NCBI GenBank assembly: GCA_001818495.1
Contig: MHKS01000005.1
Coordinates: 250,038 to 314,037, forward strand
Direction of reading: 5' to 3'
DNA length: 64,000 nt
Origin: Candidatus Komeilibacteria bacterium RIFOXYD1_FULL_37_29
Lineage (GTDB): Bacteria > Patescibacteriota > Patescibacteriia > UBA1558 > GWA2-36-10
Shown: positions 6,001 to 31,956 of the stretch, in pieces
How positions within the stretch are numbered: the first letter of the stretch is position 1
Layout: each line of letters begins with the position of its first letter
The notes under the pieces: model-generated
What the model was told of the DNA's origin: nothing
Seen by the model: the letters and a program-made list of their open reading frames with translations, nothing else
The model's database searches: none
Translations under genes and position numbers: made by a program

Positions 6001-9000
6001 TTATCTTGGTTCTTTGGCTTATAATGAAAAATCAAACGATGATTCTTGGGCCAAAAAGTTAGTAGCTTTATTTAAACCAGTCAGGGCTAACAGCCAAGGT
6101 AATCCGACAGTTGATATTATCGCTTTTAGAGTCATGAATAATTCAGAGCATCTTTCTATAATCGATTGGTATACCAAAAATGCTCCCAATCCAGAAGGTG
6201 GACAAACTATAACTATCAACGGTTACGAAGCCATGCAAGTCGGCGCTTCAATCTATATAGCGGCCACCAATATTGAAGGTGGAACAATTTATACCAATGT
6301 CTATATAATTGCTCATAATATTGGAGCCAATGCTACGACTTTAGAAATTTATAATCAGTTAGTTGAAAATTTCAAATTAAATGTTAATATTGGTACTACT
6401 TTGGCTGGTACCTGTAATGGTCAGACATCTTTATCGTGTTCTAGTGATTTTGACTGCCCAAATTATTGTGATAATTTTGCTGATAATAATCAGGCCGATT
6501 GTCTAGCCAGTGGCTCAAATTGGCTACCTGATAGTTGTGATGCCTCACTTCTAAAATTGCGTCGGGATACCAAGCGTCTCAGTGATTTGGTTAATATCAA
6601 TGAAGCTGTTTTAGCTTACGGAGAAATGCATAAAGCTTGTGCTAACAACAGCTTGATTTCTTGTCAAAATTCTTCCAATTGTCCGAGCGGGGCAGCTTGT
6701 GTGCCATATTATCCACCTTTAAATTCTGGAACGTATCTAAATGGATCTTCCAATACTCGCTGGCCGTCCTGGCAAGAAACTTTGTCCGGCACTTTGGGCT
6801 ATTCTTTGCCAGAAGATCCAATCAATTTATTTAATGGTTGTAATGATCCTTATAATCCTGAGACTTGTTGGGATGAACAGGCTTTGGAATTTATCTGTCC
6901 AGCCAATTCTTTGGTCTATATGTATAACATCGGGGGCATTGGACAGTCTTACTATTTGGGGGCAAAATTTGAATTTGATATGCAAAATCCTGCCCCGCCA
7001 GTTACTTTTGTTAATAATTTAAATAATCCAGTCACTATGGATTTGGATATCAATACTCCATATTGTGATGCTATTGTGTTAAATCCTCCGGGAGCTTCAG
7101 CTAGCCCCTATTGTGGTAACGGTGTGATTGATAATGATTACTGTACTGAGCCTGTTTATAATAATCAGGCCGCTTGTCTAGCCGCTGGTGCAGATTGGAT
7201 TGTCAGTGAAGAGTGTGATAACGAATTTTGGAGATTTGCTTGTTCAGAGTCTCCGCCAACTGCTAATCCAGCTATACCAACAGTCGGCAACCATGAATGG
7301 TGGAGAGAGCAGACCATTGGTTGTAATCCTCCTGGAACTATCAATAGTACCGGAGAATTGATTGAATGTACTTGGTATAGACCAAGTCCGCCAATTATTG
7401 CCTCTCAATGTGGCGGTTATTGCGGTGATGGAACTCGCCAGCCTTATTATGAAAGATGTGATGGAGGCTTACCAGCTGAACCTTATCATTGTGCTGAGGC
7501 CGGAGTAAACCCATATTGTGCCGATTGTCAGGTGCTTTGTAACAATGGCACAAATATTTATCCAGCTGCTTTATGTGGTGATGGTATTTGGTCACAACCA
7601 ACAGAACAATGTGATCCAACAGCCAACCCAAACGGTAATGCTGGTTGGGATTGTACGGATGGCGGTAACATTGGTTGTAGTAATAGTTGTCAAAGAACTT
7701 GTACAGTAGGTACTCCTTATCCAGGACTTTGTGGTGATGGTTCTTTTAATCCATTAAATGAAGAATGTGATTATTCTAACTACAGTGCACCACTACCAAT
7801 AAATTCTAGCGCCATAGCTAGTTACAGCTGTACTTTATTTTGTGAGATGAATGGTGAATTTTGTGGTGATGGTGTAGCTCAGTATGAATATCAAGAACTA
7901 TGTGATTGGAATGGAGGATCTTATACCAGTCCCACACCATTATTTTCTGATGAATTTCATCAATATGGTTGTCGGGAAAATGGTTTTTATACAGCTTTAA
8001 ATGGAGCAGACTATGGTGCTTGTACAGCTACTTTGGACGGTTGGTGCGGTGACGGTAATATTCAGGACGGTGTAACATTCCCAGATTATGGAGAAGAGTG
8101 TGATCCGGGAGCACCTTGGGATGAAATAGATCAAAACCCTCCACCACCACTGCCGGAAAATAGTAGTATCAACAATCAGTATTCTTGTGATATTGATTGT
8201 GTGGGCAGAATCGGTGGCTATTGTGGCGATAATGCGGCCAATGAACCATTTGAAATTTGTGACGGCTCAGATTATCCAACCAGGCCAATACCATTTTTCT
8301 CTGGACCAAACAATACTTATGCCTGTGATGCTGATTGTAGTGGTGGGGCAGTAGGTGGTGGCTGGTGTGGCGATGGTACCAAAAATAGCAATTATTACGA
8401 AGCCTGTGATTGGGGTATTGAGGGTGCTCAAGATGCAGACAATTATCCATGGCCCCGGGGAGCTAGCTTGAGTAATTTCTCCAGTGAAATGAATCAGTAT
8501 GTTTGTAGCTCCTGTGTAAATTTTGGTGGCTATTGCGGTAACGGTGTAGTGGATGGTGCTTGCACAGTCAATTGTACTGATTGCGATCAAAATAATAATA
8601 ATTGTCAGAGCTCAGTTGGCTGCACTGCCTTTCAGTGTACCTCCAAGAGTGGCACTTTCTTCCCTTATGAGCAGTGCGATAGCGGTTATGACCCGGCCTA
8701 TTTGGTCAATAAAAATGTCGATATTGTTTACATATTTGATACTTCTGGATCTATGAGTGGAGCGGCTGCCCAATTATGTCAATCTACTGCTACAGTAGTT
8801 AACACCTTAAATACTGAGCATCCAGATATAAATTATCGTATTACTATTTTCCCAATGGGCGATGGCGACGGTACAGATGGAGTGGGTTATGAACTGACAG
8901 CTACGGAAACTGATAATATTCAATATTTTTTTGAGTTAGAAAACGGAGAAGGTACTACAGAACCATGGTACGATGAAGTTTTCGATGCCTTGTATTCCAA

Positions 9001-10834: not shown

Positions 10835-11731
10835 ATGTTTGATGACTTAAAACAAGACAGTCCAATAAAATCAACTGCTCCCAATGGAGCGTCCAATACG
10901 AACAACTCGACAGTTCGTCAACCCCAAAGAGCGACTGGTATTGATGATATGTTTGATGATGTGGATCCGGTAGCTAGTGCAAGTAGCGGTGGACCAGTTG
11001 ATCCCAACAAACCTAGTGCTGTAAAGTCGGGTAAGATTAAGGTAGTTTCTCAAACCAACTTACCTACCAGCGCCCAGGCGGCTTCTCAGGTGGCTAGCTA
11101 TCCAGTTATACCACAGCCAGTTCGACCATCTAGCATGCCCACTATGTCACTAGATGATTCTATGGTTGTGACCGACGGAAGATCCAATGGCGTTATGAGA
11201 AAAATAATTATTACTTTTTTAGTCATTGTTCTTTTGGCCTTGGTCGGCGGGGGAGTTTATTATTTCTTTTTAAGAACTAATGGTTTGGACAATAACGCTC
11301 AGCCAAACGATAATGCCAATAATAATGTGGCTAATGAAAATAATAATCAAGTGGATGTATTTAATGAATCCGACCAAGAGCCGACAATCAATGAAGATGA
11401 ATTGGATGATGATTTTGATGGACTGAGCAATGGTTTAGAAAAGACCTATGGCACCAATCCTTTGGAAGTAGATAGTGATAATGACGGAGTTTTTGATCAA
11501 GATGAGGTCGAAACCCACAAGACTGATCCCTTAGCTGATGATAGTGATAGCGACGGACTTAGTGATTATCAGGAAATTATTATTTATAAGTCCGATCCCA
11601 ATGATCCCGATACAGATGGAGACACATTTTTAGACGGTGTGGAGGTGCTAAATGGTTATAATCCACTAGGTGCTGGTAAATTGGAAGAGGCTACTTCTAC
11701 TAGTAATTTAAATACTAACAATACTTTATAA
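10835..11731 (+). CDS. Single-pass membrane protein with an Asn-rich linker and thrombospondin type-3-like Ca-binding repeats
   Basis: TM helix IIITFLVIVLLALVGGGVYYFFL. Repeats DSDNDGVFDQDE, DDSDSDGLSDYQE and DPDTDGDTFLDG, all of D-x-D-x-DG-x-x-D-x-x-E type. Confidence 0.7.
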   Translation: MFDDLKQDSPIKSTAPNGASNTNNSTVRQPQRATGIDDMFDDVDPVASASSGGPVDPNKPSAVKSGKIKVVSQTNLPTSAQAASQVASYPVIPQPVRPSSMPTMSLDDSMVVTDGRSNGVMRKIIITFLVIVLLALVGGGVYYFFLRTNGLDNNAQPNDNANNNVANENNNQVDVFNESDQEPTINEDELDDDFDGLSNGLEKTYGTNPLEVDSDNDGVFDQDEVETHKTDPLADDSDSDGLSDYQEIIIYKSDPNDPDTDGDTFLDGVEVLNGYNPLGAGKLEEATSTSNLNTNNTL

Positions 11732-11735
11732 AATT

Positions 11736-12854
11736 ATGTTTAATGATCAGAATGTAAATAATCATTCGAGTGGCTTTGGTCGGGGCGATAATAACGGTTT
11801 TGGTAAAAAAAATAGCGCAGCTTTGGGCAATATTTTAGGTGTACAGAAAGAGGTGGTTAATGTCCATGCTATGCCATCCAAGTTTGTCACCACCACTCAG
11901 CGAACCGGCCATTTAACTACTGCTAGTGGAGCCAAAGGATCGGGGCGCAAATTATTATTAATTACTATTTCCTTGATTTTAGTAATCATTGTAGTAATTG
12001 GGGGAATTATGTATTTTGTTAATGGTGGAAAAGAAAAACTCAATTTTAGCCAACTATTTGGTCAAAATTTAGATTCTAATAATGTAGCCAATGAAAGTGT
12101 CAATCAGAATATAAATGACAACACAAACGACAACACCAATGAAGTAGTCAATGACAATACCAATCAGAATATAAACGACAACACCAACGACAACACCAAT
12201 GAAGTAGTCAATGACAATACCAATCAGAATATAAATGACAACACAAACGACAACACCAACGAAACTCCAAATTATCAGCCCGCTGTTGATACAGATGGAG
12301 ACGGTTTAACTACTGAAGAAGAATTGGTCTTTGGCACCAATCCGGATTTGGAGGACACCGATAAAGATGGTTATAAAGATGGACAAGAAATAACTAGTCT
12401 TTATAATCCTTTAGTACCAGCCCAAGATTTATTTTCTTCGGGCCTAGTTAAAAAATTTATTTCCTCCAATTATGGTTATACATTTTTTAGACCCAACACT
12501 TGGACAGCCAAGGTGGTCGGTACAGTTAGTAATATTATTATTTTGCCGGATTCTGAATCTGGTGAATCATTTAATATTGAAATAACGACTAATCCAGAAA
12601 ATAAAACACTTAGCCAGTTATTAGATGAAACGGGTAGTGTTTTTGTTGACGCTGAAAATTATAGTCTAGCTGGAGCACCGGCCTATCGTTCATTAGATGG
12701 CCGTAAAGTATCGGCTATCAGTAACGGTTTTTTATTCGTTATTTCTCACAATGTTAGTGGTTTAGGTGAAGTTAGTTTTGATAATATTTTTGAGATGATG
12801 TTAAAAAGTTTTACCTGGACGGAAATAGAGAGCCCCGATGTCAATGAATTATAA
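11736..12854 (+). CDS. Single-pass membrane protein with a tandem Asn/Asp/Thr repeat, TSP3-like repeats and a C-terminal globular domain
   Basis: TM helix LLLITISLILVIIVVIGGIMYFV. Three 20-aa peptide repeats NDNTNEVVNDNTNQNINDNT. TSP3-like motifs DTDGDGLTTEEE and DTDKDGYKDGQE. Same architecture as the upstream gene, which suggests paralogs. Confidence 0.7.
   Translation: MFNDQNVNNHSSGFGRGDNNGFGKKNSAALGNILGVQKEVVNVHAMPSKFVTTTQRTGHLTTASGAKGSGRKLLLITISLILVIIVVIGGIMYFVNGGKEKLNFSQLFGQNLDSNNVANESVNQNINDNTNDNTNEVVNDNTNQNINDNTNDNTNEVVNDNTNQNINDNTNDNTNETPNYQPAVDTDGDGLTTEEELVFGTNPDLEDTDKDGYKDGQEITSLYNPLVPAQDLFSSGLVKKFISSNYGYTFFRPNTWTAKVVGTVSNIIILPDSESGESFNIEITTNPENKTLSQLLDETGSVFVDAENYSLAGAPAYRSLDGRKVSAISNGFLFVISHNVSGLGEVSFDNIFEMMLKSFTWTEIESPDVNEL
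12110..12265. repeat. Intragenic 60-bp tandem repeat of about 2.6 copies (caatcagaatataaaYgacaacacMaacgacaacaccaatgaagtagtcaatgacaatac)
   Basis: A near-identical 60-bp unit is repeated in frame inside CDS 11736..12854. Confidence 0.8.
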
Positions 12855-16230: not shown

Positions 16231-16704
16231 ATGAACTGTCCGGTTTGTGCTAATAAAGATACTAAAGTAGTAGACTCTCGTCTGGGTGGCGAGGGTTTTA
16301 GTATTCGCCGTCGTCGTTTATGTGCCAAATGTAGTTTTCGTTTTTCTACAGTGGAAAAGATGGAAATCTTGGATTTGACCGTGATCAAACGCGATGGTCG
16401 TCGGGAAAATTATAATAAAGAAAAATTAATCAGAGGTCTTAGAACATCTTTAGAAAAAAGACAGTATTTGGAGGATGATTTTTATAAATTGATCAACGAG
16501 ATTGAAAAAGATATTCAAAAAGACGCTAAAAACGAGATAACTTCTAAAAAAATTGGTGAAATAGTCATGAAGCAGCTGAAATCTTTTGATCAGGTGGCTT
16601 ATATCCGCTATGCTTCAGTTTATCGGTCTTTTAAAGATGTCCAGACATTTCAAAAAGAACTCAATCAACTACTGAGAAAAAAGAAAATCAGGCCTCGCTT
16701 GTAG
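16231..16704 (+). CDS. nrdR: Transcriptional repressor NrdR (zinc ribbon + ATP-cone)
   Basis: MNCPVCANKDTKVVDSRLGGEGFSIRRRRLCAKCSFRFSTVE is the canonical NrdR N-terminus with a CxxC...CxxC ribbon. 157 aa. Confidence 0.95.
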   Translation: MNCPVCANKDTKVVDSRLGGEGFSIRRRRLCAKCSFRFSTVEKMEILDLTVIKRDGRRENYNKEKLIRGLRTSLEKRQYLEDDFYKLINEIEKDIQKDAKNEITSKKIGEIVMKQLKSFDQVAYIRYASVYRSFKDVQTFQKELNQLLRKKKIRPRL

Positions 16705-16764
16705 GCTACGGTCGAGGGAAAATAGTTATCCACTTGTGGGCTATTTTTTTTCATGTTAAGATCA

Positions 16765-16955
16765 TATTACTTTGACAATTCAATCAGGGAAGTGAGGTGT
16801 GAATCCTCTACAGTCCTAGCTACGGTAAGCTCCATGCAAGTATTATGGGGACAAGTCCGATACCTGAGATATTTGCTTTCTCCTAAGGAGAGAAGAGCTA
16901 AATTTATTAACCAATAACTTTAACTCTGCTTTTCTTAGGGCAGAGATTTTTTGTA
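16765..16955 (+). ncRNA. Cobalamin (B12) riboswitch aptamer with a downstream intrinsic terminator as expression platform
   Basis: Core GGGAAGTGAGGTGTGAATCCTCTACAGTCC...GCTACGGTAAG at 16787-16830 matches the conserved cobalamin-riboswitch core GGGAA..GGTG.GAATCC..C.G.C...GC.AC.GTAAG (compare E. coli btuB GGGAATCCAGTGCGAATCTGGAGCTGACGCGCAGCGGTAAGG). A B12-box-like AAGTCCGATACCTG lies at 16852-16866. A terminator hairpin CTCTGC-ttttcttagg-GCAGAG plus a T-run lies at 16925-16953. Confidence 0.75.
16925..16955 (+). terminator. Intrinsic terminator (riboswitch expression platform)
   Basis: Stem CTCTGC/GCAGAG with a 10-nt loop, followed by ATTTTTTG. Confidence 0.7.
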
Positions 16956-17037
16956 TATAATTTATAATTTAAAATATTATGAACCCCGTTAGAAATTCAT
17001 AAAATATAGCGGGGGAATAAAGAGTAAATATAATATT

Positions 17038-18837
17038 ATGAAAGTTACTAAAATTTTTAACGGGGCGAAAAAAATTATTCTTATTATTTTGGCCATAATT
17101 ACTTTGGTTATTCCCAGTTTGATTTTGGCAGACAATAATACCACCATTAGTTATTTAAAAGGACAAAATCAAAATGCCTGGATTAGTCAGGCTCTTACGG
17201 CTGCTTCAGTAGAAGAAGTGGATATTTCCTATCTAGACTATCAAACTACTGACTTGATGACAGCTGCTAAAAATATTTTGGTTTTAGCCGCTGTAAAATC
17301 TCCGGAAACAGTCAAAATAAATCAGCTAGTAGAAGTTATAGTTACTAGCAAAAATAATGGCCAATTTGGTTCAGTAGATTTATTAAATGATGATTTTTGG
17401 GCTATTTTAGCTTTGGCCTCAGTCAAGCATTTAGATAATACTCAAGATGTTAAAAATTTTATTTTAGAGCACCAAAACAGCGACGGTGGTTGGAGTTGGG
17501 CCAAAAATGGCGCCTCTGATAGCAACGACACAGCCGCCGCTATTATGGCTTTACTTGATTGGGGACTTACTAGCTCATCAACCGAGATCACCAGAGCTTT
17601 GGGTTATTTAAAGAGCGTTCAAAATGATGATGGTGGTTTTGCTTATGATATAGGTAGTCTATCTGATGGAGCTTCGACCGCTTGGATTATGGCGTCTTTA
17701 AATAAAGCAGAGATTAGCGCTAGTAGTTGGCAAAAAAATAATAATAACCCCGTAGCTTTTTTAGAAAATCTTAGACAAGATGACGGGTCATTTTTGTGGA
17801 TGCCGTCTGATGACCACGGTTCTAGTATGGTCACAGCTTATGCTTTATTAGCCCTAAGTGGCCAGAGCTATCCAGTAAATTATATAGACATAGGTACAGA
17901 AGACGAAGAACCGATTTCTGGTCATAGTTTGCGGATTGAAGGGCCAGAGGGCACTATTTGTTTGGCTAGTGGCTTACAGGCCCAAACAGTTTTGGATTTA
18001 TTGGAATTGGGCGCTGAGGTCTGTGATTTTGAATATGTGCTTCAAGACAGCTCTTATGGTACTTATGTTTCGGCTATTGGTGGCTTGAGTGGTCAGGGGA
18101 TGAATGGCTGGCAATATTTTGTCGATTGGCAACCGGCTATGGTAGCGGCTCCTGATTATATTTTAGAGGGTCATCAGGGTGTCTTGTGGGCTTATGGTGG
18201 TTGGCCTTTTTATCCGGTCAGAGTAGAAATAAATAATACCCGTTTTCAAACCGGAGATACTTTGCTAGCTAGTTTCAATTATTATGATGGAGAAAAGTGG
18301 CTACCGCTTGCCAGTCAAGCTGTGATTTTTGGTAGCGATACCTATCAAACAGATAATTTGGGTAAATTTATTTTTACTTTAAACACGGACGGCATTTGGC
18401 CGCTATTTTCTCAACAGTCCGATCAGTATGTTAGAAGTAATCGGGAGTATATTATTGTTGGTAGTGGAGTGTCTAAAGTAGTGGACTTATCAGTCAAAAT
18501 AGAATCTGGTAGTGGTGGAGTAGGTGATAATACTATTGCTTTTAGTATTGATAAATCTAGCATTGATTTTGGTACCTTAAAACCCGGCCAAGCAGCTGAC
18601 ACTATTGTTTCGCTGGTTAATACCGGCAATGTGGATATTCATATTGAAGCCAGTGTCTTGGGTGATCAGCTTTTTCAAAATTTTACTAGCTTAGATCAGA
18701 ATTTATGGGAAGATTATAATATAGCTTTGTCTAGCAGTGCTTCTCGTCCAGTCAATGTCGGATTGTCTGTCCCTACTACTTTTAATACCCCTGGTCAAAA
18801 GGCCGGTCAATTGATTTTTTGGGCCACTAGTCAATAA
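17038..18837 (+). CDS. Secreted/lipid-anchored transcobalamin-like cobalamin-binding protein. N-terminal alpha/alpha-toroid (prenyltransferase/squalene-cyclase-type) repeats, a DUF4430 (transcobalamin beta-domain-like) module, and C-terminal beta-rich domains.
   Basis: N-terminal signal/TM KKIILIILAIITLVIPSLILA. Repeats SDGGWSW, NDDGGFAY and QDDGSFLW typical of prenyltransferase-like alpha6/alpha6 barrels. The segment TVLDLLELGAEVCDFEYVLQDSSYGTYVSAIGGLSGQGMNGWQYFVDWQPAMVAAPDYILEGHQGVLWAYGGW aligns well by eye with the transcobalamin C-terminal beta-domain (recalled human TCII ...LLDVL...SWGPYITSVQGL...TYWELLSGGEPLSQGAGSYVVRNGENLEVRW). Preceded by a B12 riboswitch. Confidence 0.75.
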   Translation: MKVTKIFNGAKKIILIILAIITLVIPSLILADNNTTISYLKGQNQNAWISQALTAASVEEVDISYLDYQTTDLMTAAKNILVLAAVKSPETVKINQLVEVIVTSKNNGQFGSVDLLNDDFWAILALASVKHLDNTQDVKNFILEHQNSDGGWSWAKNGASDSNDTAAAIMALLDWGLTSSSTEITRALGYLKSVQNDDGGFAYDIGSLSDGASTAWIMASLNKAEISASSWQKNNNNPVAFLENLRQDDGSFLWMPSDDHGSSMVTAYALLALSGQSYPVNYIDIGTEDEEPISGHSLRIEGPEGTICLASGLQAQTVLDLLELGAEVCDFEYVLQDSSYGTYVSAIGGLSGQGMNGWQYFVDWQPAMVAAPDYILEGHQGVLWAYGGWPFYPVRVEINNTRFQTGDTLLASFNYYDGEKWLPLASQAVIFGSDTYQTDNLGKFIFTLNTDGIWPLFSQQSDQYVRSNREYIIVGSGVSKVVDLSVKIESGSGGVGDNTIAFSIDKSSIDFGTLKPGQAADTIVSLVNTGNVDIHIEASVLGDQLFQNFTSLDQNLWEDYNIALSSSASRPVNVGLSVPTTFNTPGQKAGQLIFWATSQ

Positions 18838-18839
18838 AT

Positions 18840-19406
18840 ATGCTAAAAATTTTCTCAGTTCTATTAGTCGTGTTGTTTGGACTACCTCTCACAGTCCAAG
18901 CCGTTGGTTTGTCTGTTTCGCCGTCTTCTCTGGATATTTTTTATCCGGATGTTTTAACACAAAAAATAAAAATACAAAATATTTCTAGTGAGCCTATAAA
19001 AATCTATGTGCGGGCTGATGATTTTTCAAAAGAGATTAGCTTAGAACCGTCGGAGTTTAATTTGTTACCCCAAGAGATTGCTCTGGTAAATATTTCAGCT
19101 GATTTTAAGCATTTATCAGCCGGTGTTAGAAAAACCAATATTTCTGTTTTGTCCCAAGCTCTAGATAAAAAGAGTTTCAATGCTATCTCTGGTATCAAGG
19201 TGCCAGTCAGTATTTATGTTACGGAAAGTTATTTCAAGTGGTCAGGACCAGCTGTCTTTGTCGTAGTGTTTTTGGGCTTGGGAGTTATTTTTATGCTTTG
19301 GTATTTATTGGTTTATATTTTCCGGCTTAAACCCAAGAAAAATAAATTAGCGGGTTTTAACTTTTTGTTACATCATAAGCGGAAAAAGTGGTATAAATGG
19401 TGGTAA
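18840..19406 (+). CDS. Hypothetical bitopic protein (signal peptide, beta-rich domain, C-terminal TM anchor with a basic tail). Probably co-transcribed with the B12-binding protein.
   Basis: Start is 3 nt after the upstream stop. N-terminal signal MLKIFSVLLVVLFGLPLTVQA. C-terminal TM VVVFLGLGVIFMLWYLLVYIF followed by RLKPKKNK. Confidence 0.5.
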   Translation: MLKIFSVLLVVLFGLPLTVQAVGLSVSPSSLDIFYPDVLTQKIKIQNISSEPIKIYVRADDFSKEISLEPSEFNLLPQEIALVNISADFKHLSAGVRKTNISVLSQALDKKSFNAISGIKVPVSIYVTESYFKWSGPAVFVVVFLGLGVIFMLWYLLVYIFRLKPKKNKLAGFNFLLHHKRKKWYKWW

Positions 19407-19426
19407 TTTGTTATGATATTTGGAGT

Positions 19427-19596
19427 AGGGAGAGGTAGCAGATCCCGCGTAGCGGGACCCCGCTTTGCGGGGGTGGTTTAGAAATAGTAAGTTGATAATT
19501 TCATTTAGTTTTGGAGAGGTGGCAGCTCCCGCGCAGCGGGACCCCGCTTTGCGGGGGTGGTTTAGAAATAGTAAGTTGATAATTTCATTTAGTTTT
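19427..19596. repeat. Two tandem copies of a roughly 84-bp unit, each beginning with the first 9 nt of the adjacent tRNA (GGAGAGGTG) and containing GC-rich hairpins (CCCGCgcaGCGGG; CCCCGCtttGCGGGG)
   Basis: Copy A is about 19430-19512 and copy B 19513-19596. They are roughly 92% identical and directly abut the 5' end of tRNA-Ser. Confidence 0.8.
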
Positions 19597-19686
19597 GGAG
19601 AGGTGCTAGAGTGGTTGAATAGGGTGCTCTCGAAAAGCACTAGTCCTGAAAGGGACTCGGGGGTTCAAATCCCTCCCTCTCCGCCA
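19597..19686 (+). tRNA. tRNA-Ser (anticodon CGA), type II with a long variable arm, 3' CCA encoded
   Basis: GGAGAGGTG...acceptor, with the pairing CCTCTCC-G-CCA at the 3' end. D-loop AGAGTGGTTGAA. Anticodon loop CTCGAAA. Long extra arm. T-arm GGTTCAAATCC. Confidence 0.85.
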
Positions 19687-20035
19687 TCCTTCGCTAAAGC
19701 TACGGAATGACTAGCCATATGTTATATTATACTTACATTTTATTAAGCTCAAAATCTCATATTTTTTATTTTGGTTCAACGAATAATTTAAAAAATAGAT
19801 TGGAGCTGCATAATAGCGGCAAGGTAACATCAACTAAATCGCATATACCTTGGAAATTAGTTTGGTATTGTGTATTTGAAACGGAAAAACAGGCAAGAGA
19901 TTTTGAGCTTTATTTAAAAACAGGGTCAGGAAAATCTTTTGCTTATAAAAGACTTATTTCCGTGGCTTTAGAGAAGGATTTCAGGGAAGGGAGAATAGGT
20001 AGTCCGAAGCGGAAGCCTTAGCTTTTGCGAAGGAT
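19687..20035. mobile_element. 349-bp GIY-YIG mini-element inserted at the 3' end of tRNA-Ser. It is bounded by 16-bp imperfect terminal inverted repeats (TCCTTCGCTAAAGCTA / TAGCTTTTGCGAAGGA) and flanked by a 16-bp direct repeat of the tRNA 3' end (CCCTCCCTCTCCGCCA at 19671-19686; ACCTCCCTCTCCGCCA at 20036-20051).
   Basis: Repeats are read directly. TIR match is 15/16 and DR match 15/16. The only gene inside is the GIY-YIG ORF. Confidence 0.6.
19707..20021 (+). CDS. GIY-YIG nuclease-domain protein (YhbQ/Slx1-like, UPF0213 family)
   Basis: YYTYILLSSKSHIFYFGSTNNLKNRLELHN...TK...PWKLVWYCVFETEKQARDFELYLK matches the GIY-YIG core (GIY / YIG / R / E / N). Confidence 0.8.
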   Translation: MTSHMLYYTYILLSSKSHIFYFGSTNNLKNRLELHNSGKVTSTKSHIPWKLVWYCVFETEKQARDFELYLKTGSGKSFAYKRLISVALEKDFREGRIGSPKRKP

Positions 20036-20190
20036 ACCTCCCTCTCCGCCAGATTACCAAGTTTGAACCCAAGCAAAATAAGGGTTTTGTGCTATTGAAA
20101 AGCCGGTGTCCGAATAAGGTGCTGATTTTTTAAAATCCTTATCAAATGAGTAAATTTTTGGTAAAATAGAGTTAATAAGAATAGAATTAT

Positions 20191-22020
20191 ATGTCTAAAA
20201 AAATTGATTACGACAACTGGTCAAAAGATGAGATAATCAAGGAGATTAGGCGAATCAAAGAAACTACATACGGACTTGTGTGGCATCGCGACTTACCTGA
20301 GGAAAAAATTGATATTCTTATAAACCCAGATGCTCGGACTCCAAATGAAATGTTCCCTAACGAAATGGCGGGCAAGCCATTTCCAGTTTTGAAAGAGGCA
20401 AAAACAAAAACAATTGAGACTGATAAAAATAAGCCGACAAATATTTTGATTGAGGGTGATAATTATCATTCTCTTGCCGTTTTGAATTTTACTCATCAAG
20501 AAGCAATTGATTTGATTTACATTGATCCGCCTTACAATACTGGCCACAACGATTTTGTTTACAATGATAAAATTAAAAGCGGTTATGTTGTTAAAGATGA
20601 TCCATTTAGGCATAGTAAATGGATTTCTTTCATGGAAAAAAGGTTAAAACTCGCAAAAAATTTATTGAAATCGTCGGGTGTTATTTTTATTAGTATTGAC
20701 GACAATGAATTTGCTCCATTAAAAATGCTGTGTGACGAGATTTTTGATGAAAGTAATTTCATCTCTATGTTGTCAATTGAAAATAATCCTAAGGGACGGA
20801 AAAACTCCGATTTTATATCTATTTGTAATGATTATTGTCTTATATACGCTAAAGACAAAGGTAAAAGTTATTTTGTTGAAAATATTCCCAAACAAGCTGA
20901 CGACTTAACGATTGATGATAATGGAGACTATGTACACAATAGCGGCAAACGGGTCCTTGTTGGAGAAAATAAATTTAATCCGCTTGTAGAAGATTTTGAA
21001 TCAGCTAAGCATTATAGTGTTTATTACAATCAGACTGATAATAAAATTAAAATAGAGGTGGAAAAAAATATTCACGAGGCAAACAAAGATTTATTAAAAA
21101 ACGGATATAAAAGATACTATTCTTATTTTGGAGACAGATTTGTCTTGAATACTTATACAAAATCAAAAATCATAGAGCTTTTCGAAGATGAGGCTCTCGA
21201 ATTCAAAAATGGGAGTATATATGAAAAAAATTTCAGCACAACAATTAGACTAAAAAGTCTTGTTATCAATAAAAAATATGAGGCAGTAATAAATAATGAA
21301 AAAGCAGAATATCAAATAGATGTTAAAACGACTTCAGCGAAGACTGAATTAAAGGATATTTTCAACACTGACCAAATTCCATTTGATAACCCCAAGAATA
21401 TTGGTTTGATAAAATTATTGGTAACATTATTTGAAAATAAATCAATAACTATTTTAGATTTTTTTGCAGGATCGGGAACGACCGGGCATGCAGTCCTTGG
21501 TCAAAATAAAGAAGATGGAGGAAATCGACAATTTATTCTGTGCACGAATAATGAAAATAATATATGCACTGATATCTGCTATCCCCGTCTTGGAAAAGTT
21601 ATAAAGGGATATAAAAATTCAAGAAATGAAAAAATTGATGGTTTGGGTGGAAACCTGAGATATTTTACTGCTTATGACTTTGTAGAAGCTAAGGAAACAG
21701 ATAGAAACAAAAGAAAACTAGTAAACCAATCAACAGAAATGCTTTGCATTAAGGAAAATGCTTTTGAGCTTGTGCAAGAAGTTGAAGATTATAAAATCTT
21801 CAAGAATCATGATAAATATTTGGGAATTATTTTTCATGAAGATTCTATATCGGACTATGTCAAAGCAATAAAAAAGATAAAAGGACACTTTAATACTTAT
21901 ACATTTTCAATGACGGATGATCCTCACAAAGAGGAATTTACTGATGTTGCGGACAAAGTAACTCTTTGTGCAATTCCAGAAATGATTTTGAAAGTATATC
22001 ATGAGATTTTCAAGGAATAA
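20191..22020 (+). CDS. mod: Type III restriction-modification system, Mod subunit (N6-adenine DNA methyltransferase)
   Basis: Motif IV DPPY within LIYIDPPYNTGHNDFVYND. Motif I FFAGSGTTGHAV. 609 aa. Overlaps res by 20 nt. Confidence 0.85.
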   Translation: MSKKIDYDNWSKDEIIKEIRRIKETTYGLVWHRDLPEEKIDILINPDARTPNEMFPNEMAGKPFPVLKEAKTKTIETDKNKPTNILIEGDNYHSLAVLNFTHQEAIDLIYIDPPYNTGHNDFVYNDKIKSGYVVKDDPFRHSKWISFMEKRLKLAKNLLKSSGVIFISIDDNEFAPLKMLCDEIFDESNFISMLSIENNPKGRKNSDFISICNDYCLIYAKDKGKSYFVENIPKQADDLTIDDNGDYVHNSGKRVLVGENKFNPLVEDFESAKHYSVYYNQTDNKIKIEVEKNIHEANKDLLKNGYKRYYSYFGDRFVLNTYTKSKIIELFEDEALEFKNGSIYEKNFSTTIRLKSLVINKKYEAVINNEKAEYQIDVKTTSAKTELKDIFNTDQIPFDNPKNIGLIKLLVTLFENKSITILDFFAGSGTTGHAVLGQNKEDGGNRQFILCTNNENNICTDICYPRLGKVIKGYKNSRNEKIDGLGGNLRYFTAYDFVEAKETDRNKRKLVNQSTEMLCIKENAFELVQEVEDYKIFKNHDKYLGIIFHEDSISDYVKAIKKIKGHFNTYTFSMTDDPHKEEFTDVADKVTLCAIPEMILKVYHEIFKE

Positions 22021-24262
22021 TTATATGTCATGGATTAATTTTAAAAATTATCAAGAAACTGCAATCGATGAAATACGCGACAAGATTAATGCCCTGCTCA
22101 AAAAAGAGGGTAATAGACTTTGCGTATTCAAAGCTCCGACTGGTTCGGGGAAAACTTTAATGATGGCGGAATGGATGATGAGGTTTTGTGACCCATATTC
22201 GCGAATTGATGGGAAAACTTTTTCTTTTGTATGGATAGCAGTAAATAAATTACATGATCAAAGCCATGACAGTTTAAAAAAGTTTTATGAGCTCAAAGGA
22301 GCGGGGCTTCGTTGTTCATATTTTCACGAACTTGAGGATAGAAAAATAAAACAGAACGAGATTTTATTTTTGAATTGGGCAAGTATCAATAATGAAGACA
22401 AGATTATTGTTCGCGCGAATGAAAGAGATAATAATCTCTCAACAATAATTGATCGGACCAAAGATGCCAGTCGGACAATTATTTTGATTATCGACGAAAG
22501 CCACCATACCGCAAAAAGTAAAAATTCAAAGGCTTTAATAAAAAATATTGACCCTAAAATTACGATCGAGGTTTCTGCTACACCAGAAATTTTTGATTTT
22601 GATGAGCGGGTAACCATTGATATTGAGGATGTACGAAGCGAGGAAATGATAAAGAAAGAAATTGTAGTGAACCCTGGCTTCAAAAATTACACAGTTGATC
22701 CAAAAAAGAACGATCAAACAGCAGACGAATTAATCTTGAAGTCTGCTTTGCAAAAAAGGATTGATTTGCGAAAAAAATTAGAAAAAGATGGTTCAAATGT
22801 CAATCCCTTATTACTTATTCAATTACCGGATACAAAAAAAGGAGTTCCTGATAAAAAAGAGGAGATTGAAACACTTCTTGCTAAATTTGGCTATACAACA
22901 AAAAATGGAAAGTTGGCTGTCTATCTTTCTGAAAAAGATAACAAAATAAATCTTGCTAATATTGAGAAAAATGAAAACGAAGTGGAGGTAATGATGTTCA
23001 AGCAAGCGATTGCACTTGGTTGGGATTGTCCAAGAGCTACAATTCTTGTGCTTTTCCGTCAATGGAAAGATGAAACGATAACATTCTCAATCCAAACATT
23101 GGGAAGAATCATGCGTATGCCTGAGCAAAAACATTATAAAGATCAAGAGTTGAATATTGCTTATCTTTATACTAGTTTACAAGACATTAATACTCGTATT
23201 TTGAAAGGTGCTTCGTCGGGAATAAAATCTCTTACGAGTTATCGCAATGAGAAATATAAAAATATTGACCTAATTTCATATCACTCAAAACGATTCCGTG
23301 AGGAAACTCGTTTGTCTTCTGATTTTGTGAAAATTTTTATCGAAGCCGCTAAAAAAACAAATTTAAAAGATGTTTCGCTAAAAGTCGGGATTGTGAAAAC
23401 AACAATGATCAAAGATGGACGCGTGGAAAATGCGGATAAAGAAATAACAAAGATTGAAAGTGATACTTTTTCTATACCCAAAACAGAGACGGAGCTGCAA
23501 TATACTTTTGATATGTTTGTGCTTGATAATCTTGATCCGTTTGAACATGAAGCCCGTTCTATAAAACGCATAAACGATTCAATTTATACTTTCTTTGGCG
23601 CACGACGCAAAGAAGATGAATGGCCTAAAATACAAGCCACGATACTTTCGTATGAAAAGAATCGCCAAGCTGTAATTGATGCTATTAATCTAGCAAAAGA
23701 TTTATATAAAACCGAAGTTGGAAAAGGCAAAAAAGAACTGATACAAAATGATGAGCCGTGGAATGTGCCAGAAGCTATTAATTTTGATCCGTCATTTGTA
23801 GAGCAAAATTATAAAAAATCTATAATGCAACCATATTACGCTCGTTCTCGGGATGGAGAAAACGGACGATTGTTTGAGGACAGTGAAATTGAAAATGATT
23901 TTATTAAATACCTAGAAAAAGCACAGAAAGTTGTTTGGTGGTTCAGAAATGGGAAACAAGACGGATCATTTTTTGCTGTCCCGCACATTGAACACGGACA
24001 AGAAAAGCCGTTTTATGTTGATTTTATAGTTATGATGAAAAATGGAACTGTTGGGCTTTTTGATACAAAATCAGGATATACTGCCGAACTAGCAAAATCT
24101 CGCTCTGATGGACTTGTAAAATATATTAATGAGCAGAAAAAGAAAAAAATTACTGGCGGAATTGTGAGATACGAAAAGAAAAGTTGGCTATATTTTACTA
24201 ACAAAGAATATAAATATAATCCGAATGATATAAAGGATTGGGAATTTTTGGATTTGAATTAA
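22001..24262 (+). CDS. res: Type III restriction enzyme, Res subunit (SF2 helicase-nuclease)
   Basis: Walker A FKAPTGSGKT. DEAH box IIDESHH. 753 aa. Translationally coupled to mod. Confidence 0.85.
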   Translation: MRFSRNNYMSWINFKNYQETAIDEIRDKINALLKKEGNRLCVFKAPTGSGKTLMMAEWMMRFCDPYSRIDGKTFSFVWIAVNKLHDQSHDSLKKFYELKGAGLRCSYFHELEDRKIKQNEILFLNWASINNEDKIIVRANERDNNLSTIIDRTKDASRTIILIIDESHHTAKSKNSKALIKNIDPKITIEVSATPEIFDFDERVTIDIEDVRSEEMIKKEIVVNPGFKNYTVDPKKNDQTADELILKSALQKRIDLRKKLEKDGSNVNPLLLIQLPDTKKGVPDKKEEIETLLAKFGYTTKNGKLAVYLSEKDNKINLANIEKNENEVEVMMFKQAIALGWDCPRATILVLFRQWKDETITFSIQTLGRIMRMPEQKHYKDQELNIAYLYTSLQDINTRILKGASSGIKSLTSYRNEKYKNIDLISYHSKRFREETRLSSDFVKIFIEAAKKTNLKDVSLKVGIVKTTMIKDGRVENADKEITKIESDTFSIPKTETELQYTFDMFVLDNLDPFEHEARSIKRINDSIYTFFGARRKEDEWPKIQATILSYEKNRQAVIDAINLAKDLYKTEVGKGKKELIQNDEPWNVPEAINFDPSFVEQNYKKSIMQPYYARSRDGENGRLFEDSEIENDFIKYLEKAQKVVWWFRNGKQDGSFFAVPHIEHGQEKPFYVDFIVMMKNGTVGLFDTKSGYTAELAKSRSDGLVKYINEQKKKKITGGIVRYEKKSWLYFTNKEYKYNPNDIKDWEFLDLN

Positions 24263-24265
24263 ATT

Positions 24266-25450
24266 ATGGCATTAGAATCAGAAAAATTGGAAGAAAAAAT
24301 AGTTGATAATTATTTTACTGATACTCTATATAGTAGTCGGGAATTTAAGGGTGGAGTAGGTAAATTTTTTACAATAGTATCTCAGGATGAAAATGATATC
24401 CCAAATGTAGTTGATGTTGAGCATTCGTATCCTATACGCAATAAAATAAAGACAACGCTGACATTTATCAAAAAAGAAAACGAAATTACAGCCATTTCCT
24501 TTAAGCGTTTTAAATATTATAAAAAAGAACATTGGGTTGAACAACCAGAAGAACAGATTACTTTTTCATACAGTCTTTTTAAAAAAATTATTGGGTATTT
24601 ACAGTTACTATCAGAATTAAATTTGTCGGCTATTAGTGAGCGAAGAATTGCTTTAGCCGATGACACATTACCGAATATTGACGATGAAACAAAAAAGAAG
24701 ATTAAAACATTGCTTTTACGCAAAGATGGGCAAAAAATTATTGAGGAATTAATAAATAGCGGAATAATTACATCAACCGATATTGTAAATATCGGGTATC
24801 GAAAAAAACAACTTGATGTTTTTGAGAAGCTCCTGACACAACCCGATTATTTTGCAACCTATATAACTGAAAGTAAAATTACAGATACTCGTCATGAGTC
24901 TGTTTGGCAACATTTCTTCCATTCTAATGATTGGATTTTTGGATATGGACTAGATTATCGCTTTCTTGGCATCCTGCAAAAAGAAGCTCATATTTCAAAT
25001 ACAGACGTCGCAGGAAAAGGGGCTGTTATAAATGATTTTCTACTCGGGTGCAATAAATTCACCGTTTTGGTTGAATTAAAAAAACACGACACACCATTAT
25101 TTGGAAAAGACAAAAACCGGTCAAACTCTTGGACACTTTCAGATGATTTAATATCTGGTCTATCTCAAATATTAGAGCAAAAAGCTAGTTGGCAGGTTTC
25201 GGCCGAGACAAATGCAAGTGGAAATTTTGACGATAAGGGTAATTTGATAAAACAAAAAACTATCGATCCAAAAAGTATCTTAGTTATCGGATCAACAAAG
25301 CAATTTGATGGTGATGATAAAGAAAATCAAATTAAAGCAAAAACCTTTGAACTTTTTAGACGAGATTCAAGAAATATAGAAATTCTTACTTATGACGAAC
25401 TGTATGAGAGAGCGAAGTTTATTGTTGAACATAAACAGAAAGACAACTAG
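24266..25450 (+). CDS. Putative defense-associated PD-(D/E)xK nuclease, Shedu (SduA/DUF4263)-like
   Basis: 394 aa. Core AVINDFLLGCNKFTVLVELKK gives D...ELK, a PD-(D/E)xK signature. C-terminal KSILVIGST...IEILTYDELYERA resembles DUF4263 ends. Immediately downstream of Type III R-M. Confidence 0.4.
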   Translation: MALESEKLEEKIVDNYFTDTLYSSREFKGGVGKFFTIVSQDENDIPNVVDVEHSYPIRNKIKTTLTFIKKENEITAISFKRFKYYKKEHWVEQPEEQITFSYSLFKKIIGYLQLLSELNLSAISERRIALADDTLPNIDDETKKKIKTLLLRKDGQKIIEELINSGIITSTDIVNIGYRKKQLDVFEKLLTQPDYFATYITESKITDTRHESVWQHFFHSNDWIFGYGLDYRFLGILQKEAHISNTDVAGKGAVINDFLLGCNKFTVLVELKKHDTPLFGKDKNRSNSWTLSDDLISGLSQILEQKASWQVSAETNASGNFDDKGNLIKQKTIDPKSILVIGSTKQFDGDDKENQIKAKTFELFRRDSRNIEILTYDELYERAKFIVEHKQKDN

Positions 25451-25793
25451 GTTTAAATAGAATAATCCACCTCATTTTTGCTCTTATCTGATTTTAGCTT
25501 CGGTGTCTCAAACCATTCTGGATGAACCTTGAACATAGCCCTTAATTCGCGTATACTTTTATCAATATCCTTAAATTTGAACCACTTTTTTGGTTCAAAC
25601 TTCGGGACATCGCCACCGCCACTCGATTCGCATTTTGCTTCGCAAAAAGCTCACTCGTGATCTACGGTGCTAAAGCACCTTCGACCATTCTAATTCTAGA
25701 ATCGAGTGTATTGAGCGAGCGTAGCGAGTCGAAAGGCACGCGCTATCGTGCTAGCATAAGTGTATTAAAAAATTTCTATATAGTTATTAAAAT

Positions 25794-26387: not shown

Positions 26388-26416
26388 TACTACTAGAACA
26401 TTTTTATCTATCTCAA

Positions 26417-26690: not shown

Positions 26691-26707
26691 TTAAGAAATG
26701 GTAGTAT

Positions 26708-31955: not shown

Positions 31956-31956
31956 A

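What the first reader, a model, noticed from the sequence alone, without database searches (positions are those of the whole stretch)
16765..16955. Cobalamin riboswitch with a terminator expression platform, sitting between nrdR and a surface protein gene
The conserved aptamer core (GGGAA-n3-GGTG-n-GAATCC...C-G-CC...GC-AC-GTAAG) and a B12-box-like segment are present. An intrinsic terminator follows about 60 nt downstream, which suggests transcription-attenuation control. CPR bacteria are B12 auxotrophs, so a riboswitch-gated B12-scavenging gene next to nrdR (regulator of ribonucleotide reductases, often the B12-dependent class II enzyme) makes physiological sense.
Basis: partly seen in the sequence, partly recalled or inferred. 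Interest (0 to 1): 0.65.

Follow-up and report, generated by a model that had tools for sequence, protein, structure and literature searches.

The report
B12 riboswitch gating a B12-catcher gene
This is a genuine vitamin-B12-sensing RNA switch that most likely stops transcription of a transcobalamin-like surface protein gene in a tiny "CPR" bacterium when B12 is plentiful; it is a correct but fairly ordinary find of a well-known kind.

Summary
Rfam's Cobalamin model (RF00174) hits window 16745-16885 above its gathering score (34.4 vs 31.5 bits, E 5e-5). Twenty-one related Patescibacteria loci carry the same leader, and its P3-P6 core is supported by compensatory changes.

A conserved promoter (TTGnnn-17-TGnTAnnnT in 21/22 leaders) puts the RNA start near 16769. 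The Rfam "P1/P2" part is therefore probably promoter DNA, and the real aptamer is a short, Cbl-II-like form: no P2, small hairpin on P6.

Downstream lie a P13 hairpin (loop CUAAGGA, complementary to L5 UCCU), an AU hairpin, and a terminator with U-run (16924-16952). In 17/22 leaders the lowest-energy fold is an antiterminator. Blocking AGGA, as an L5-L13 kissing loop would, gives the terminator in 22/22. Best reading: a B12-dependent transcriptional OFF switch.

The regulated gene (17038-18837) has the transcobalamin, intrinsic factor and haptocorrin fold (alpha/alpha toroid plus beta-grasp DUF4430), followed by a conserved membrane-anchored PapD-like partner (18840-19406). Cobalamin-type elements precede this gene in at least 47 of 65 Patescibacteria loci.

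nrdR adjacency is conserved (20/22), but nrdR is a separate transcription unit and no functional link is shown. Verdict: new member of a known kind, moderate-low interest.

The parts
16734..16762 (+). Promoter: -35 TTGTGG (16734-16739), 17-nt spacer with extended-10 TG (16754-16755), -10 TAAGAT (16757-16762). Inferred transcription start near A16769.
   Evidence: TTGnnn-17-(TGn)TAnnnT is found in 21/22 homologous leaders, with a variable distance to the aptamer. The Rfam P1 pairing over this stretch is not conserved in relatives. The TSS is inferred, not measured.
16769..16783 (+). Conserved 5' leader ACUUUGACAAUUCAA. No P1/P2 partner was found.
   Evidence: Highly conserved in alignment A2. 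A search for any conserved helix of 4 bp or more with downstream columns found none.
16784..16867 (+). Cobalamin aptamer core. P3 is 16784-16788/16863-16867. J3/4 is GGGAAG. P4/L4 is 16794-16808. P5/L5 is 16812-16821, with L5 UCCUAG at 16814-16819. The P6 base is 16823-16825/16857-16859, with a short hairpin extension at 16830-16850. The B12-box-like J6/3 is 16853-16867.
   Evidence: RF00174 at 34.4 bits, above its gathering score. RNAalifold recovers P3-P6. In A2, 98.8% of cells are paired and 7/15 pairs are compensatory; slid controls give 25-51%. In 47 sequences, 16/22 pairs are compensatory.
16872..16902 (+). P13 hairpin. Inner stem is UUCUC 16878-16882 / GAGAA 16890-16894. Loop L13 is CUAAGGA at 16883-16889. 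AGGA at 16886-16889 is complementary to L5 UCCU at 16814-16817 (proposed kissing loop).
   Evidence: The RF01482 alignment of the transcribed part places this hairpin on the model's P13 with a 7-nt loop. The P13 pairs are kept in 22/22 leaders and 7/7 pairs covary in 47 sequences. L5/L13 complementarity changes in step across subfamilies.
16899..16922 (+). AU-rich central hairpin between P13 and the terminator. It extends the antiterminator helix.
   Evidence: Columns 141-153/174-186 of A2 are 96.8% paired, with 3 pairs compensatory.
16924..16952 (+). Intrinsic terminator: stem-loop 16924-16945 (9 bp) plus U-run 16947-16952.
   Evidence: Terminator scan. A terminator abutting the U-run is predicted in 22/22 leaders when AGGA is blocked or P13 is enforced.
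16876..16945 (+). Alternative antiterminator: 16876-16897 (the P13 region) pairs with 16924-16945 (the whole terminator).
   Evidence: It is the minimum-free-energy fold of the window leader, at -25.7 kcal/mol against -20.9 for P13 plus terminator. It is also the RNAalifold consensus of the 22 leaders and the MFE in 17/22.
17038..18837 (+). Regulated gene F0: a secreted 599-aa transcobalamin-like protein. It has a signal peptide, an alpha/alpha toroid (about residues 30-285), a beta-grasp DUF4430/SLBB domain (about 296-390), a further beta domain, and a C-terminal PapD/Cep192-like Ig domain.
   Evidence: Pfam PF00432, PF13243, PF14478 and PF22073. The family profile hits the transcobalamin beta-domain at E 4e-7. 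The AF2 model has pLDDT 83. The top 15 Foldseek PDB hits are transcobalamin, intrinsic factor and haptocorrin.
18840..19406 (+). Co-transcribed partner F1 (188 aa): signal peptide, PapD/MSP-like Ig domain, C-terminal TM helix and basic tail.
   Evidence: It starts no more than 32 nt after the F0 ORF in 19 of the 20 related loci that hold it (194 nt in L024; in L003 the contig ends). No Pfam or NCBIfam hit. AF2 pLDDT 82; Foldseek hits pilus chaperones and MSP domains.
16231..16704 (+). Upstream neighbour nrdR. It is a separate transcription unit and not part of the switch.
   Evidence: Pfam Zn_ribbon_NrdR plus ATP-cone. The order ftsA-ftsZ-nrdR-riboswitch is conserved in 20/22 loci.

Best explanation
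A cobalamin riboswitch of the short, Cbl-II-like architecture is transcribed from its own sigma-70-type promoter, starting near 16769. It controls the two-gene operon F0-F1: a transcobalamin-like B12-binding surface protein and its PapD-like membrane partner.

With cobalamin bound (inferred): the P3-P6 four-way junction is organised and L5 (UCCU, 16814-16817) forms a kissing loop with L13 (AGGA, 16886-16889). This locks hairpin P13. The downstream segment 16924-16945 is then free to fold into the intrinsic terminator, and RNA polymerase stops at the U-run 16947-16952, 85 nt before the start codon.

Without cobalamin (inferred): P13 is not held. Its two strands (16876-16897) pair with the two strands of the terminator (16924-16945) to give a more stable long antiterminator helix, and transcription reads through into F0-F1.

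Net effect: the B12-scavenging apparatus is made only when intracellular B12 is low.

Shown in silico: family membership, helices, the two alternative folds, protein folds, and conservation. Inferred: ligand binding, kissing-loop formation, the TSS, and termination itself.
For: - **Rfam.** RF00174 hit above gathering score. The transcribed part alone aligns to RF01482, P13 included.
- **Homologues.** 21 homologous leaders from Patescibacteria share the aptamer, P13, central hairpin and terminator.
- **Aptamer covariation.** 98.8% paired, 7/15 compensatory pairs, 0/500 shuffles reach the observed score, slid controls 25-51%. In 47 sequences, 16/22 pairs are compensatory, including 7/7 in P13.
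- **Bistable platform.** The antiterminator is the RNAalifold consensus and the MFE in 17/22 leaders. Blocking AGGA or enforcing P13 yields a terminator in 22/22. The mean cost is 2.2-4.3 kcal/mol; for the window, -25.7 against -20.9 and -19.0.
- **Kissing loop.** L5/L13 complementarity co-varies between subfamilies: UCCU/AGGA, UGC/GCA, AUC/GAU, GUC/GAC, UCGCG/CGCGA. An L5-L13 kissing loop is described as common to all cobalamin riboswitch classes (PMC7367189).
- **Promoter.** Conserved in 21/22 leaders.
- **Gene association.** Model R1 finds a hit on the + strand just upstream of the F0 homologue in 47/65 Patescibacteria loci and only one hit in the window. Rfam gathering thresholds confirm 8/15 close and 12/15 distant loci.
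- **F0 fold.** Transcobalamin, intrinsic factor and haptocorrin. Such bacterial toroid+SLBB proteins were predicted to be extracellular B12 scavengers (PMC1796856).
Against: - The Rfam score is only 3 bits above threshold, and part of it comes from aligning promoter DNA. On the transcribed part alone the best model, RF01482, is below its own gathering score (37.6 vs 50).
- No P1 helix was found, and the conserved 5' leader has no assigned role.
- Within the window's own subfamily L5 and L13 are invariant. The kissing-loop covariation therefore rests on comparing subfamilies by a semi-manual motif count with noisy off-diagonal cells.
- In its most stable local register, P13 closes over a UAA triloop and buries AGGA, so kissing would have to compete with 3-4 intramolecular pairs.
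- In 5/22 leaders the terminator state is already the MFE.
- No experiment supports ligand binding, ligand form, the TSS or termination.
- Alignment A4 is fitted to the model, which inflates its pair counts.
Confidence: 0.8

Rival explanations
1. The same riboswitch and the same OFF logic, but the switch does not use an L5-L13 kissing loop. Instead, ligand binding stabilises P3 and J6/3. This frees the adjacent 5' strand of P13 (CUUUCUCC), which in the apo state could pair with the aptamer's GGGAAG, so that it can act as a classical anti-antiterminator.
For: P13 starts only a few nucleotides after the 3' strand of P3. By inspection of the sequence, CUUUCU can pair with GGGAAG using G-U pairs; this is inference only. 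In its best local register P13 buries AGGA in the stem. L5 and L13 are invariant in the window's subfamily, so kissing is not proven there.
Against: L5 and the loop of the first downstream hairpin change together across five subfamilies. RF01482 aligns the hairpin as a P13 with a 7-nt loop. The literature describes the kissing loop as universal in this riboswitch class (PMC7367189). No covariation was found for a GGGAAG/CUUUCU pairing, because GGGAA is invariant.
Confidence: 0.12
2. The element acts mainly on translation or on a short leader ORF. On this reading the conserved AAGGAG in L13 is a real Shine-Dalgarno sequence that is masked or unmasked, as in the env8 or btuB-type switches.
For: CUAAGGAG is a near-perfect SD sequence and is invariant in 22 leaders. 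Some relatives (L004, L006, L010, L012, L014) have AUG 7-9 nt downstream.
Against: In the window and in L001, L002, L003, L007 and L062 no AUG, GUG or UUG follows at SD spacing. The real start codon is about 150 nt downstream. The positions concerned are part of a covarying helix, columns 141-147/180-186. A terminator with U-run is present in 22/22 leaders.
Confidence: 0.05
3. A chance or decayed match: the sequence resembles a cobalamin aptamer but no longer binds ligand, and the terminator is a constitutive attenuator or the nrdR terminator.
For: The Rfam score is marginal (34.4 vs 31.5) and is partly derived from promoter DNA. There is no P1, and P6 is truncated.
Against: Core nucleotides are invariant and the helices covary over 22-47 loci from diverse Patescibacteria. 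The element always lies upstream of the same transcobalamin-like gene. Twenty of 30 related loci pass Rfam gathering thresholds independently. A separate promoter lies between nrdR and the element.
Confidence: 0.03

Closest known systems
Cbl-II class cobalamin riboswitches (for example env8, PDB 4FRN; Rfam RF01689 'AdoCbl-II')
   Same: Four-way junction P3-P6 with the GGGAA J3/4, the GGUG..AAUCC L4 and a B12-box J6/3. No P2 module. P6 carries only a loop (relatives L007, L009, L012, L013, which pass RF01689 at 44-45 bits) or a short hairpin (the window). An L5-L13 kissing hairpin follows directly after the aptamer.
   Different: No P1/J1-3 could be identified: the RNA appears to start 18 nt before GGGAA. 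L13 is embedded in a terminator/antiterminator exchange rather than masking a ribosome-binding site. The window copy itself is reported best under RF00174 or RF01482, not RF01689. Ligand preference (OH/MeCbl versus AdoCbl) is unknown.
Bacillus subtilis yvrC (btuF) cobalamin riboswitch, and AdoCbl riboswitches of RF01482 (T. tengcongensis 4GMA, S. thermophilum 4GXY)
   Same: Control of a B12-uptake gene by transcription termination, with P13/L13 kissing L5 and alternative pairing with the terminator region (PMC7367189). The window RNA aligns over the full RF01482 model, including P13.
   Different: Those RNAs have a P2 arm and/or a large P7-P11 extension. The window RNA has neither, and it scores below the RF01482 gathering score (37.6 vs 50).
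Transcobalamin / intrinsic factor / haptocorrin, and the bacterial toroid+SLBB (DUF4430) proteins predicted by Burroughs et al. 2007 (PMC1796856)
   Same: N-terminal alpha/alpha toroid followed by a beta-grasp domain, secreted. The top structural matches cover both domains. The family was predicted to scavenge extracellular B12 in organisms that lack biosynthesis.
   Different: About 14-18% identity. Two extra C-terminal beta domains, including a PapD-like one. A dedicated PapD-like membrane partner (F1). No CbiO/CbiQ-type transporter genes in the operon, unlike the operons described in 2007. Corrinoid binding is untested.

Membership tests
Cobalamin riboswitch (Rfam clan CL00101; RF00174) | Covariance-model score at or above the curated gathering score | tested here: met
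   RF00174 scores 34.4 bits against 31.5, E 5.1e-5 over the whole window. Caveat: model positions 1-25 are aligned to what is probably promoter DNA.
Cobalamin riboswitch (Rfam clan CL00101; RF00174) | Four-way junction P3-P4-P5-P6 supported by covariation | tested here: met
   In A2, 98.8% of cells are paired, 7/15 pairs are compensatory, and slid controls give 25-51%. In A4, 16/22 pairs are compensatory.
Cobalamin riboswitch (Rfam clan CL00101; RF00174) | Conserved core sequences: J3/4 GGGAA, L4 GGUG..AAUCC, and a B12 box (AGYCMG..ACCUG) | tested here: met
   Found at 16787-16791, 16796-16806 and 16853-16866. They are invariant or nearly so in 22 leaders.
Cobalamin riboswitch (Rfam clan CL00101; RF00174) | L5-L13 kissing loop linking the aptamer to the expression platform | tested here: met
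   L5 UCCU and L13 AGGA are complementary in 22/22 leaders. Complementarity changes in step in four other subfamilies. P13 with a 7-nt loop aligns to RF01482. This is sequence-level evidence only.
Cobalamin riboswitch (Rfam clan CL00101; RF00174) | Binds a cobalamin and changes gene expression | not testable with these tools
   Needs in-line probing or ITC, and transcription assays.
Cbl-I class (AdoCbl; RF01482-type) | P2 loop-stem-loop between P1 and P3, and a large P7-P11 extension of P6 (PMC7367189) | tested here: not met
   The transcript starts about 18 nt before GGGAA. The P6 extension is a 21-nt hairpin here and is absent in four close relatives. RF01482 scores 37.6 bits, below its gathering score of 50.
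Cbl-II class (IIa/IIb) | No P2 module; only a loop or short hairpin on P6 | tested here: met
   Relatives without a P6 hairpin pass RF01689.
Cbl-II class (IIa/IIb) | P1 helix with a J1/3 bulge (IIa) or a short mismatched segment (IIb), which sets ligand selectivity | tested here: inconclusive
   No conserved helix links the 5' leader to any downstream column. The subclass, and hence the cobalamin form sensed, cannot be assigned.
Intrinsic (Rho-independent) terminator | GC-containing stem-loop immediately followed by a U-run, upstream of the regulated ORF | tested here: met
   Stem 16924-16945 (9 bp, 4 GC) plus T6. Present in 22/22 leaders. Termination itself was not tested.
Transcobalamin-like B12 binders (alpha/alpha toroid + SLBB/DUF4430) | Two-domain architecture with a secretion signal | tested here: met
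   Pfam PF00432/PF13243 plus PF14478. Sequence-profile hit to the TC2 beta-domain, E 4e-7. Foldseek top 15 hits are TC, IF and HC, E 5e-11 to 2e-9.
Transcobalamin-like B12 binders (alpha/alpha toroid + SLBB/DUF4430) | Binds cobalamin between the two domains | not testable with these tools
   Supported only indirectly, by riboswitch association in at least 47 loci.

The most novel reading that the evidence does not exclude
F0 plus F1 may form a so far uncharacterised, CPR-wide corrinoid capture system. On this reading a bacterial transcobalamin homologue is tethered to the membrane through a PapD-like partner, possibly through the matching PapD-like domain at the F0 C-terminus. It would serve as the main, or only, riboswitch-controlled B12 acquisition route of these reduced episymbionts, working without a canonical BtuF/BtuCD, ECF-CbrT or BtuM gene in the operon. 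The riboswitch subfamily (P1-less, with an SD-like L13 re-used in a hairpin-exchange terminator) would be its dedicated sensor.
Probability: 0.35. Interest if true: 0.55.

Novelty: new member of a known kind. Interest (0 to 1): 0.35.

Why it matters
The RNA is a standard cobalamin riboswitch that automated Rfam annotation would already flag, so the RNA itself adds little.

Its value is as a functional label. It ties an unstudied, widespread Patescibacteria protein pair, a transcobalamin-fold surface protein plus a PapD-like membrane partner, to B12 physiology in at least 47 independent loci. CPR bacteria are uncultured, metabolically reduced organisms, and how they obtain cofactors is largely unknown. 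A riboswitch-marked B12 capture operon gives a concrete, testable candidate.

The set of 47 leaders also offers natural covariation for the L5-L13 kissing loop, and an example of that loop coupled to a two-hairpin/one-hairpin terminator exchange.

Tried and rejected
1. **Rfam's P1/P2 alignment (16745-16770) taken as RNA.** Rejected. The stretch is a conserved -35/-10 promoter (21/22 leaders) and its proposed pairing is not kept in relatives.
2. **Search for a P1 or any partner of the conserved 5' leader.** None found. Eye-picked 3-bp options were not consistent.
3. **Leader-peptide or SD reading of AAGGAG.** Rejected because no start codon is conserved.
4. **ORFs 16753-16917 (+) and 16989-17147 (-) from the ORF list.** Treated as spurious: the first starts upstream of the inferred TSS, and its ATG is not conserved in relatives.
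5. **Column-wise covariation of the terminator.** Not possible, because the terminators are not in register between subgroups. Replaced by per-sequence folding.
6. **Automated L13 detection by local folding.** Missed the main family, because the MFE closes the loop. Replaced by a motif cross-table, which is only semi-quantitative.
7. **NrdR-box reading of the palindrome CCACTTGTGG in the promoter.** Considered by eye. More simply explained as hairpins at the nrdR 3' end overlapping the -35. Not pursued.
8. **Literature searches for cobalamin riboswitches or B12 use in CPR/Patescibacteria.** Found nothing relevant.
9. **Pfam scan of 29 of the window's ORFs.** Found no B12-dependent enzyme, cob/cbi gene or known B12 transporter.
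10. **Whole-genome check for NrdJ, MetH and similar enzymes.** Could not be done, because only +/-4 kb of the related contigs is held.

Full report
**1. Observation**

- GGGAA at 16787-16791.
- GGTG at 16796-16799. The spacer is 4 nt, not 3.
- GAATCC at 16801-16806.
- A B12-box-like AAGUCCGAUACCUGA at 16853-16867.

A scan of the whole window against Rfam 15 at gathering thresholds returns two hits. One is a tRNA. The other is RF00174 (Cobalamin) at 16745-16885 on the + strand, at 34.4 bits against a gathering score of 31.5, with E 5.1e-5.

The terminator scan finds a 9-bp stem-loop at 16924-16945 followed by T6. The upstream ORF 16231-16704 is NrdR. The downstream ORF 17038-18837 is a 599-aa secreted protein.

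**2. Relatives**

The 599-aa protein (F0) has hundreds of homologues, essentially all from Patescibacteria/CPR MAGs such as Komeilibacteria, Parcubacteria and Nealsonbacteria. More distant ones occur in Dehalococcoidia and Bathyarchaeia.

I fetched 80 loci. In the 21 closest, the whole leader is recognisably the same as in the window: aptamer, a hairpin with the invariant loop CCUAAGGAG, an AU-rich hairpin, and a terminator with U-run.

Gene order is conserved in 20/22 loci:
- ftsA, ftsZ, nrdR, then the leader.
- A small lipoprotein-like ORF F9, present in 9/22 loci and absent in the window.
- F0, then F1, followed (in 18 related loci) by an ORF of about 115 aa and, where the contig extends, a release-factor gene.

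In the window, a tRNA-Ser and a roughly 14-kb island follow F1 instead. The island holds a GIY-YIG gene, a DNA methylase, a ResIII helicase, a Shedu gene and others. The release-factor gene reappears at 33818.

**3. Where the RNA starts**

In 21 of the 22 leaders, a TTGnnn box is followed at 17 nt by TGnTAnnnT. In the window these elements are:
- -35 TTGTGG at 16734-16739.
- TG at 16754-16755.
- -10 TAAGAT at 16757-16762.

The distance from this -10 to the aptamer varies between subgroups (24 to 53 nt). The pairing that Rfam proposes for the stretch 16745-16768 is not kept in relatives.

I therefore take it as a promoter, with a start near A16769. This is inferred, not measured. The RNA then has no room for the P1/P2 elements of the RF00174 model.

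Searching only the transcribed part (16769-16905) gives RF01482 (AdoCbl) as the best model, at 37.6 bits. That is below its gathering score of 50. However, the alignment places 16872-16902 on the model's P13 hairpin, with the 7-nt loop CUAAGGA.

No conserved helix links the 15-nt 5' leader to anything downstream.

**4. Aptamer structure**

RNAalifold on a plain MAFFT alignment of the 22 leaders (A2) recovers P3, P4, P5 and the base of P6. Counting on that alignment:
- 98.8% of cells are paired.
- 7 of 15 pairs show compensatory changes. Examples are UCAGG/CCUGA becoming UCGAG/CUCGA, GUCGG/CCCGA and ACAGG/CCUGU, and CGG/CCG becoming CUG/CAG in P6 in a 12:9 split.
- None of 500 shuffles reach the observed score.
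- Slid controls give 25-51% paired.

A covariance model built from aptamer plus P13 (R1) finds exactly one hit in the window. It also finds a hit on the + strand just upstream of the F0 homologue in 47 of 65 Patescibacteria loci at E <= 0.05.

In that 47-sequence alignment, 16/22 pairs are compensatory, including all 7 of P13. The alignment is fitted to the model, so these counts lean towards the structure.

Rfam's own gathering thresholds give independent support. A cobalamin-clan hit at the same place passes in 8/15 close loci and 12/15 distant loci.

**5. Class**

By the published definitions (PMC7367189):
- Cbl-I has a P2 arm and a large P7-P11 extension.
- Cbl-II has neither and carries only a loop (IIa) or a short hairpin (IIb) on P6.

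Here P2 is absent. The P6 extension is a 21-nt hairpin in the window, differs in sequence and length among relatives, and is missing in L007, L009, L012 and L013. Those four pass RF01689.

The architecture is therefore Cbl-II-like. Because no P1/J1-3 could be defined, the subclass and the cobalamin form sensed remain open.

**6. Expression platform**

Folding each of the 22 platforms on its own gave these results:
- In 17/22, the minimum-energy structure is a long hairpin in which the P13 region pairs with the terminator region. In the window this is 16876-16897 with 16924-16945, at -25.7 kcal/mol.
- Forbidding AGGA from pairing, or forcing it to pair upstream (P13), gives a terminator hairpin abutting the U-run in 22/22 leaders. 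The window values are -19.0 and -20.9 kcal/mol.
- The mean cost of the switch is 2.2-4.3 kcal/mol.

The antiterminator is also the RNAalifold consensus. P13 pairs are maintained in all sequences. The platform is thus a two-hairpin/one-hairpin exchange poised near equilibrium.

**7. Kissing loop**

L5 (UCCUAG) and L13 (CUAAGGA) offer UCCU/AGGA. Both are invariant in the window's subfamily, so that subfamily gives no covariation.

Across the more distant riboswitches upstream of F0 homologues, L5 varies, and the loop of the first downstream hairpin (consensus ..CGA-xyz..) varies with it:
- UGC with GCA, in 7/9.
- AUC with GAU, in 3/4.
- GUC with GAC.
- UCGCG with CGCGA.

This is semi-quantitative. 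Some off-diagonal matches arise from GAGAU in terminators. It does agree with the literature statement that the L5-L13 kissing loop is common to all classes.

**8. Regulated genes**

F0 consists of a signal peptide, a prenyltransferase-like alpha/alpha toroid, DUF4430, and further beta domains.
- A profile of the family hits the transcobalamin beta-domain in the PDB at E 4e-7.
- The AlphaFold model has pLDDT 83.
- Its 15 best Foldseek matches are transcobalamin, intrinsic factor and haptocorrin, over both domains. The global rmsd is high because the relative domain orientation differs.

Burroughs et al. 2007 had already predicted bacterial toroid+SLBB proteins to be extracellular B12 scavengers (PMC1796856).

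F1 consists of a signal peptide, a PapD/MSP-like Ig domain, a TM helix and a basic tail. It has no database family.

No known B12 transporter, B12 enzyme or cob gene was found among the 29 window ORFs scanned.

**9. Mechanism, rivals, limits**

The best-supported reading is a cobalamin-dependent transcriptional OFF switch acting through kissing-loop stabilisation of P13. I give it a confidence of about 0.8 for the switch as such and about 0.65 for the kissing-loop step.

Three rivals were considered:
- A kissing-independent anti-antiterminator.
- Translational or leader-peptide control through AAGGAG. This is disfavoured: no start codon is conserved, and the real AUG is about 150 nt away.
- A decayed match. 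This is disfavoured by conservation and covariation.

The nrdR neighbourhood is conserved, but it reflects an ftsA-ftsZ-nrdR block next to an independently promoted operon. Whether these organisms carry a B12-dependent reductase could not be checked.

**10. Verdict**

The finding is right and well located. It is a new member of a known riboswitch kind, and Rfam already detects it. Its main interest is that it marks a widespread, unstudied transcobalamin-like protein pair of CPR bacteria as B12-related.

Noticed in passing
window 19429-19605 and 19597-19686: An 84-bp tandem repeat, 2.1 copies at 96% identity. Each unit begins with the first 9 nt of the adjacent tRNA-Ser(CGA), GGAGAGGTG, followed by two GC-rich hairpins. 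The last copy runs into the real tRNA.
   Followed up: partly
window 19672-19686 vs 20038-20052; ORF 19707-20021: The 3' end of the tRNA-Ser (CCTCCCTCTCCGCCA) is repeated just after a GIY-YIG nuclease ORF. This looks like an att-like duplication left by an insertion next to the tRNA.
   Followed up: no
window about 19400-33800: A roughly 14-kb island sits between F1 and the release-factor gene (33818-34903). In 17 related loci (all in which the contig reaches that far) the release-factor gene lies within about 2.5 kb downstream of F1. The island holds a DNA methylase (20191-22020), a ResIII helicase (22001-24262), a Shedu SduA_C protein (24266-25450), methyltransferases, a carbamoyltransferase and a thymidylate-synthase-like gene.
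   Followed up: partly
window 16982-17016: A GC-rich hairpin (AACCCCG, 21-nt loop, CGGGGG) lies between the riboswitch terminator and the F0 start codon. It is absent from the closest relatives L001, L002 and L062. Similar CCCCGC..GCGGGG hairpins occur elsewhere in related loci (L018, L019) and in the tandem repeat at 19429-19605.
   Followed up: no
window 16769-16783: The 5' leader ACUUUGAMAAU is nearly invariant in the 22 leaders but has no detectable pairing partner. Its role is unexplained. It could be a J1/3-like ligand contact, a promoter-proximal element, or a protein site.
   Followed up: partly
L003, L005, L009, L013, L015, L017, L019, L024 (between riboswitch and F0): A small ORF (F9, 115-158 aa) with a lipoprotein-like signal (for example MGLDRRMFLKLCSFSFLGFIISSC) lies between the riboswitch and F0 in these 8 listed loci. 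It has no Pfam or NCBIfam family and is absent in the window.
   Followed up: partly
window 77-10813: A giant ORF of 3578 aa, followed by two proteins with bacterial TSP3 repeats (10835-12854). These are probably large surface proteins typical of CPR.
   Followed up: no
L040, L044, L046, L052, L053, L057, L071 leaders: In distant subfamilies the L13 loop CUUCGAG is complementary to CUCGAAG in the terminator loop. This is the same hairpin-exchange logic as in the window, built from a different sequence.
   Followed up: partly
window 16705-16750: The short nrdR 3' region contains hairpins (CCTCG..CGAGG and CCAC-TT-GTGG) and a T8 run that overlap the -35 of the riboswitch promoter. This may be the nrdR terminator.
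   Followed up: no
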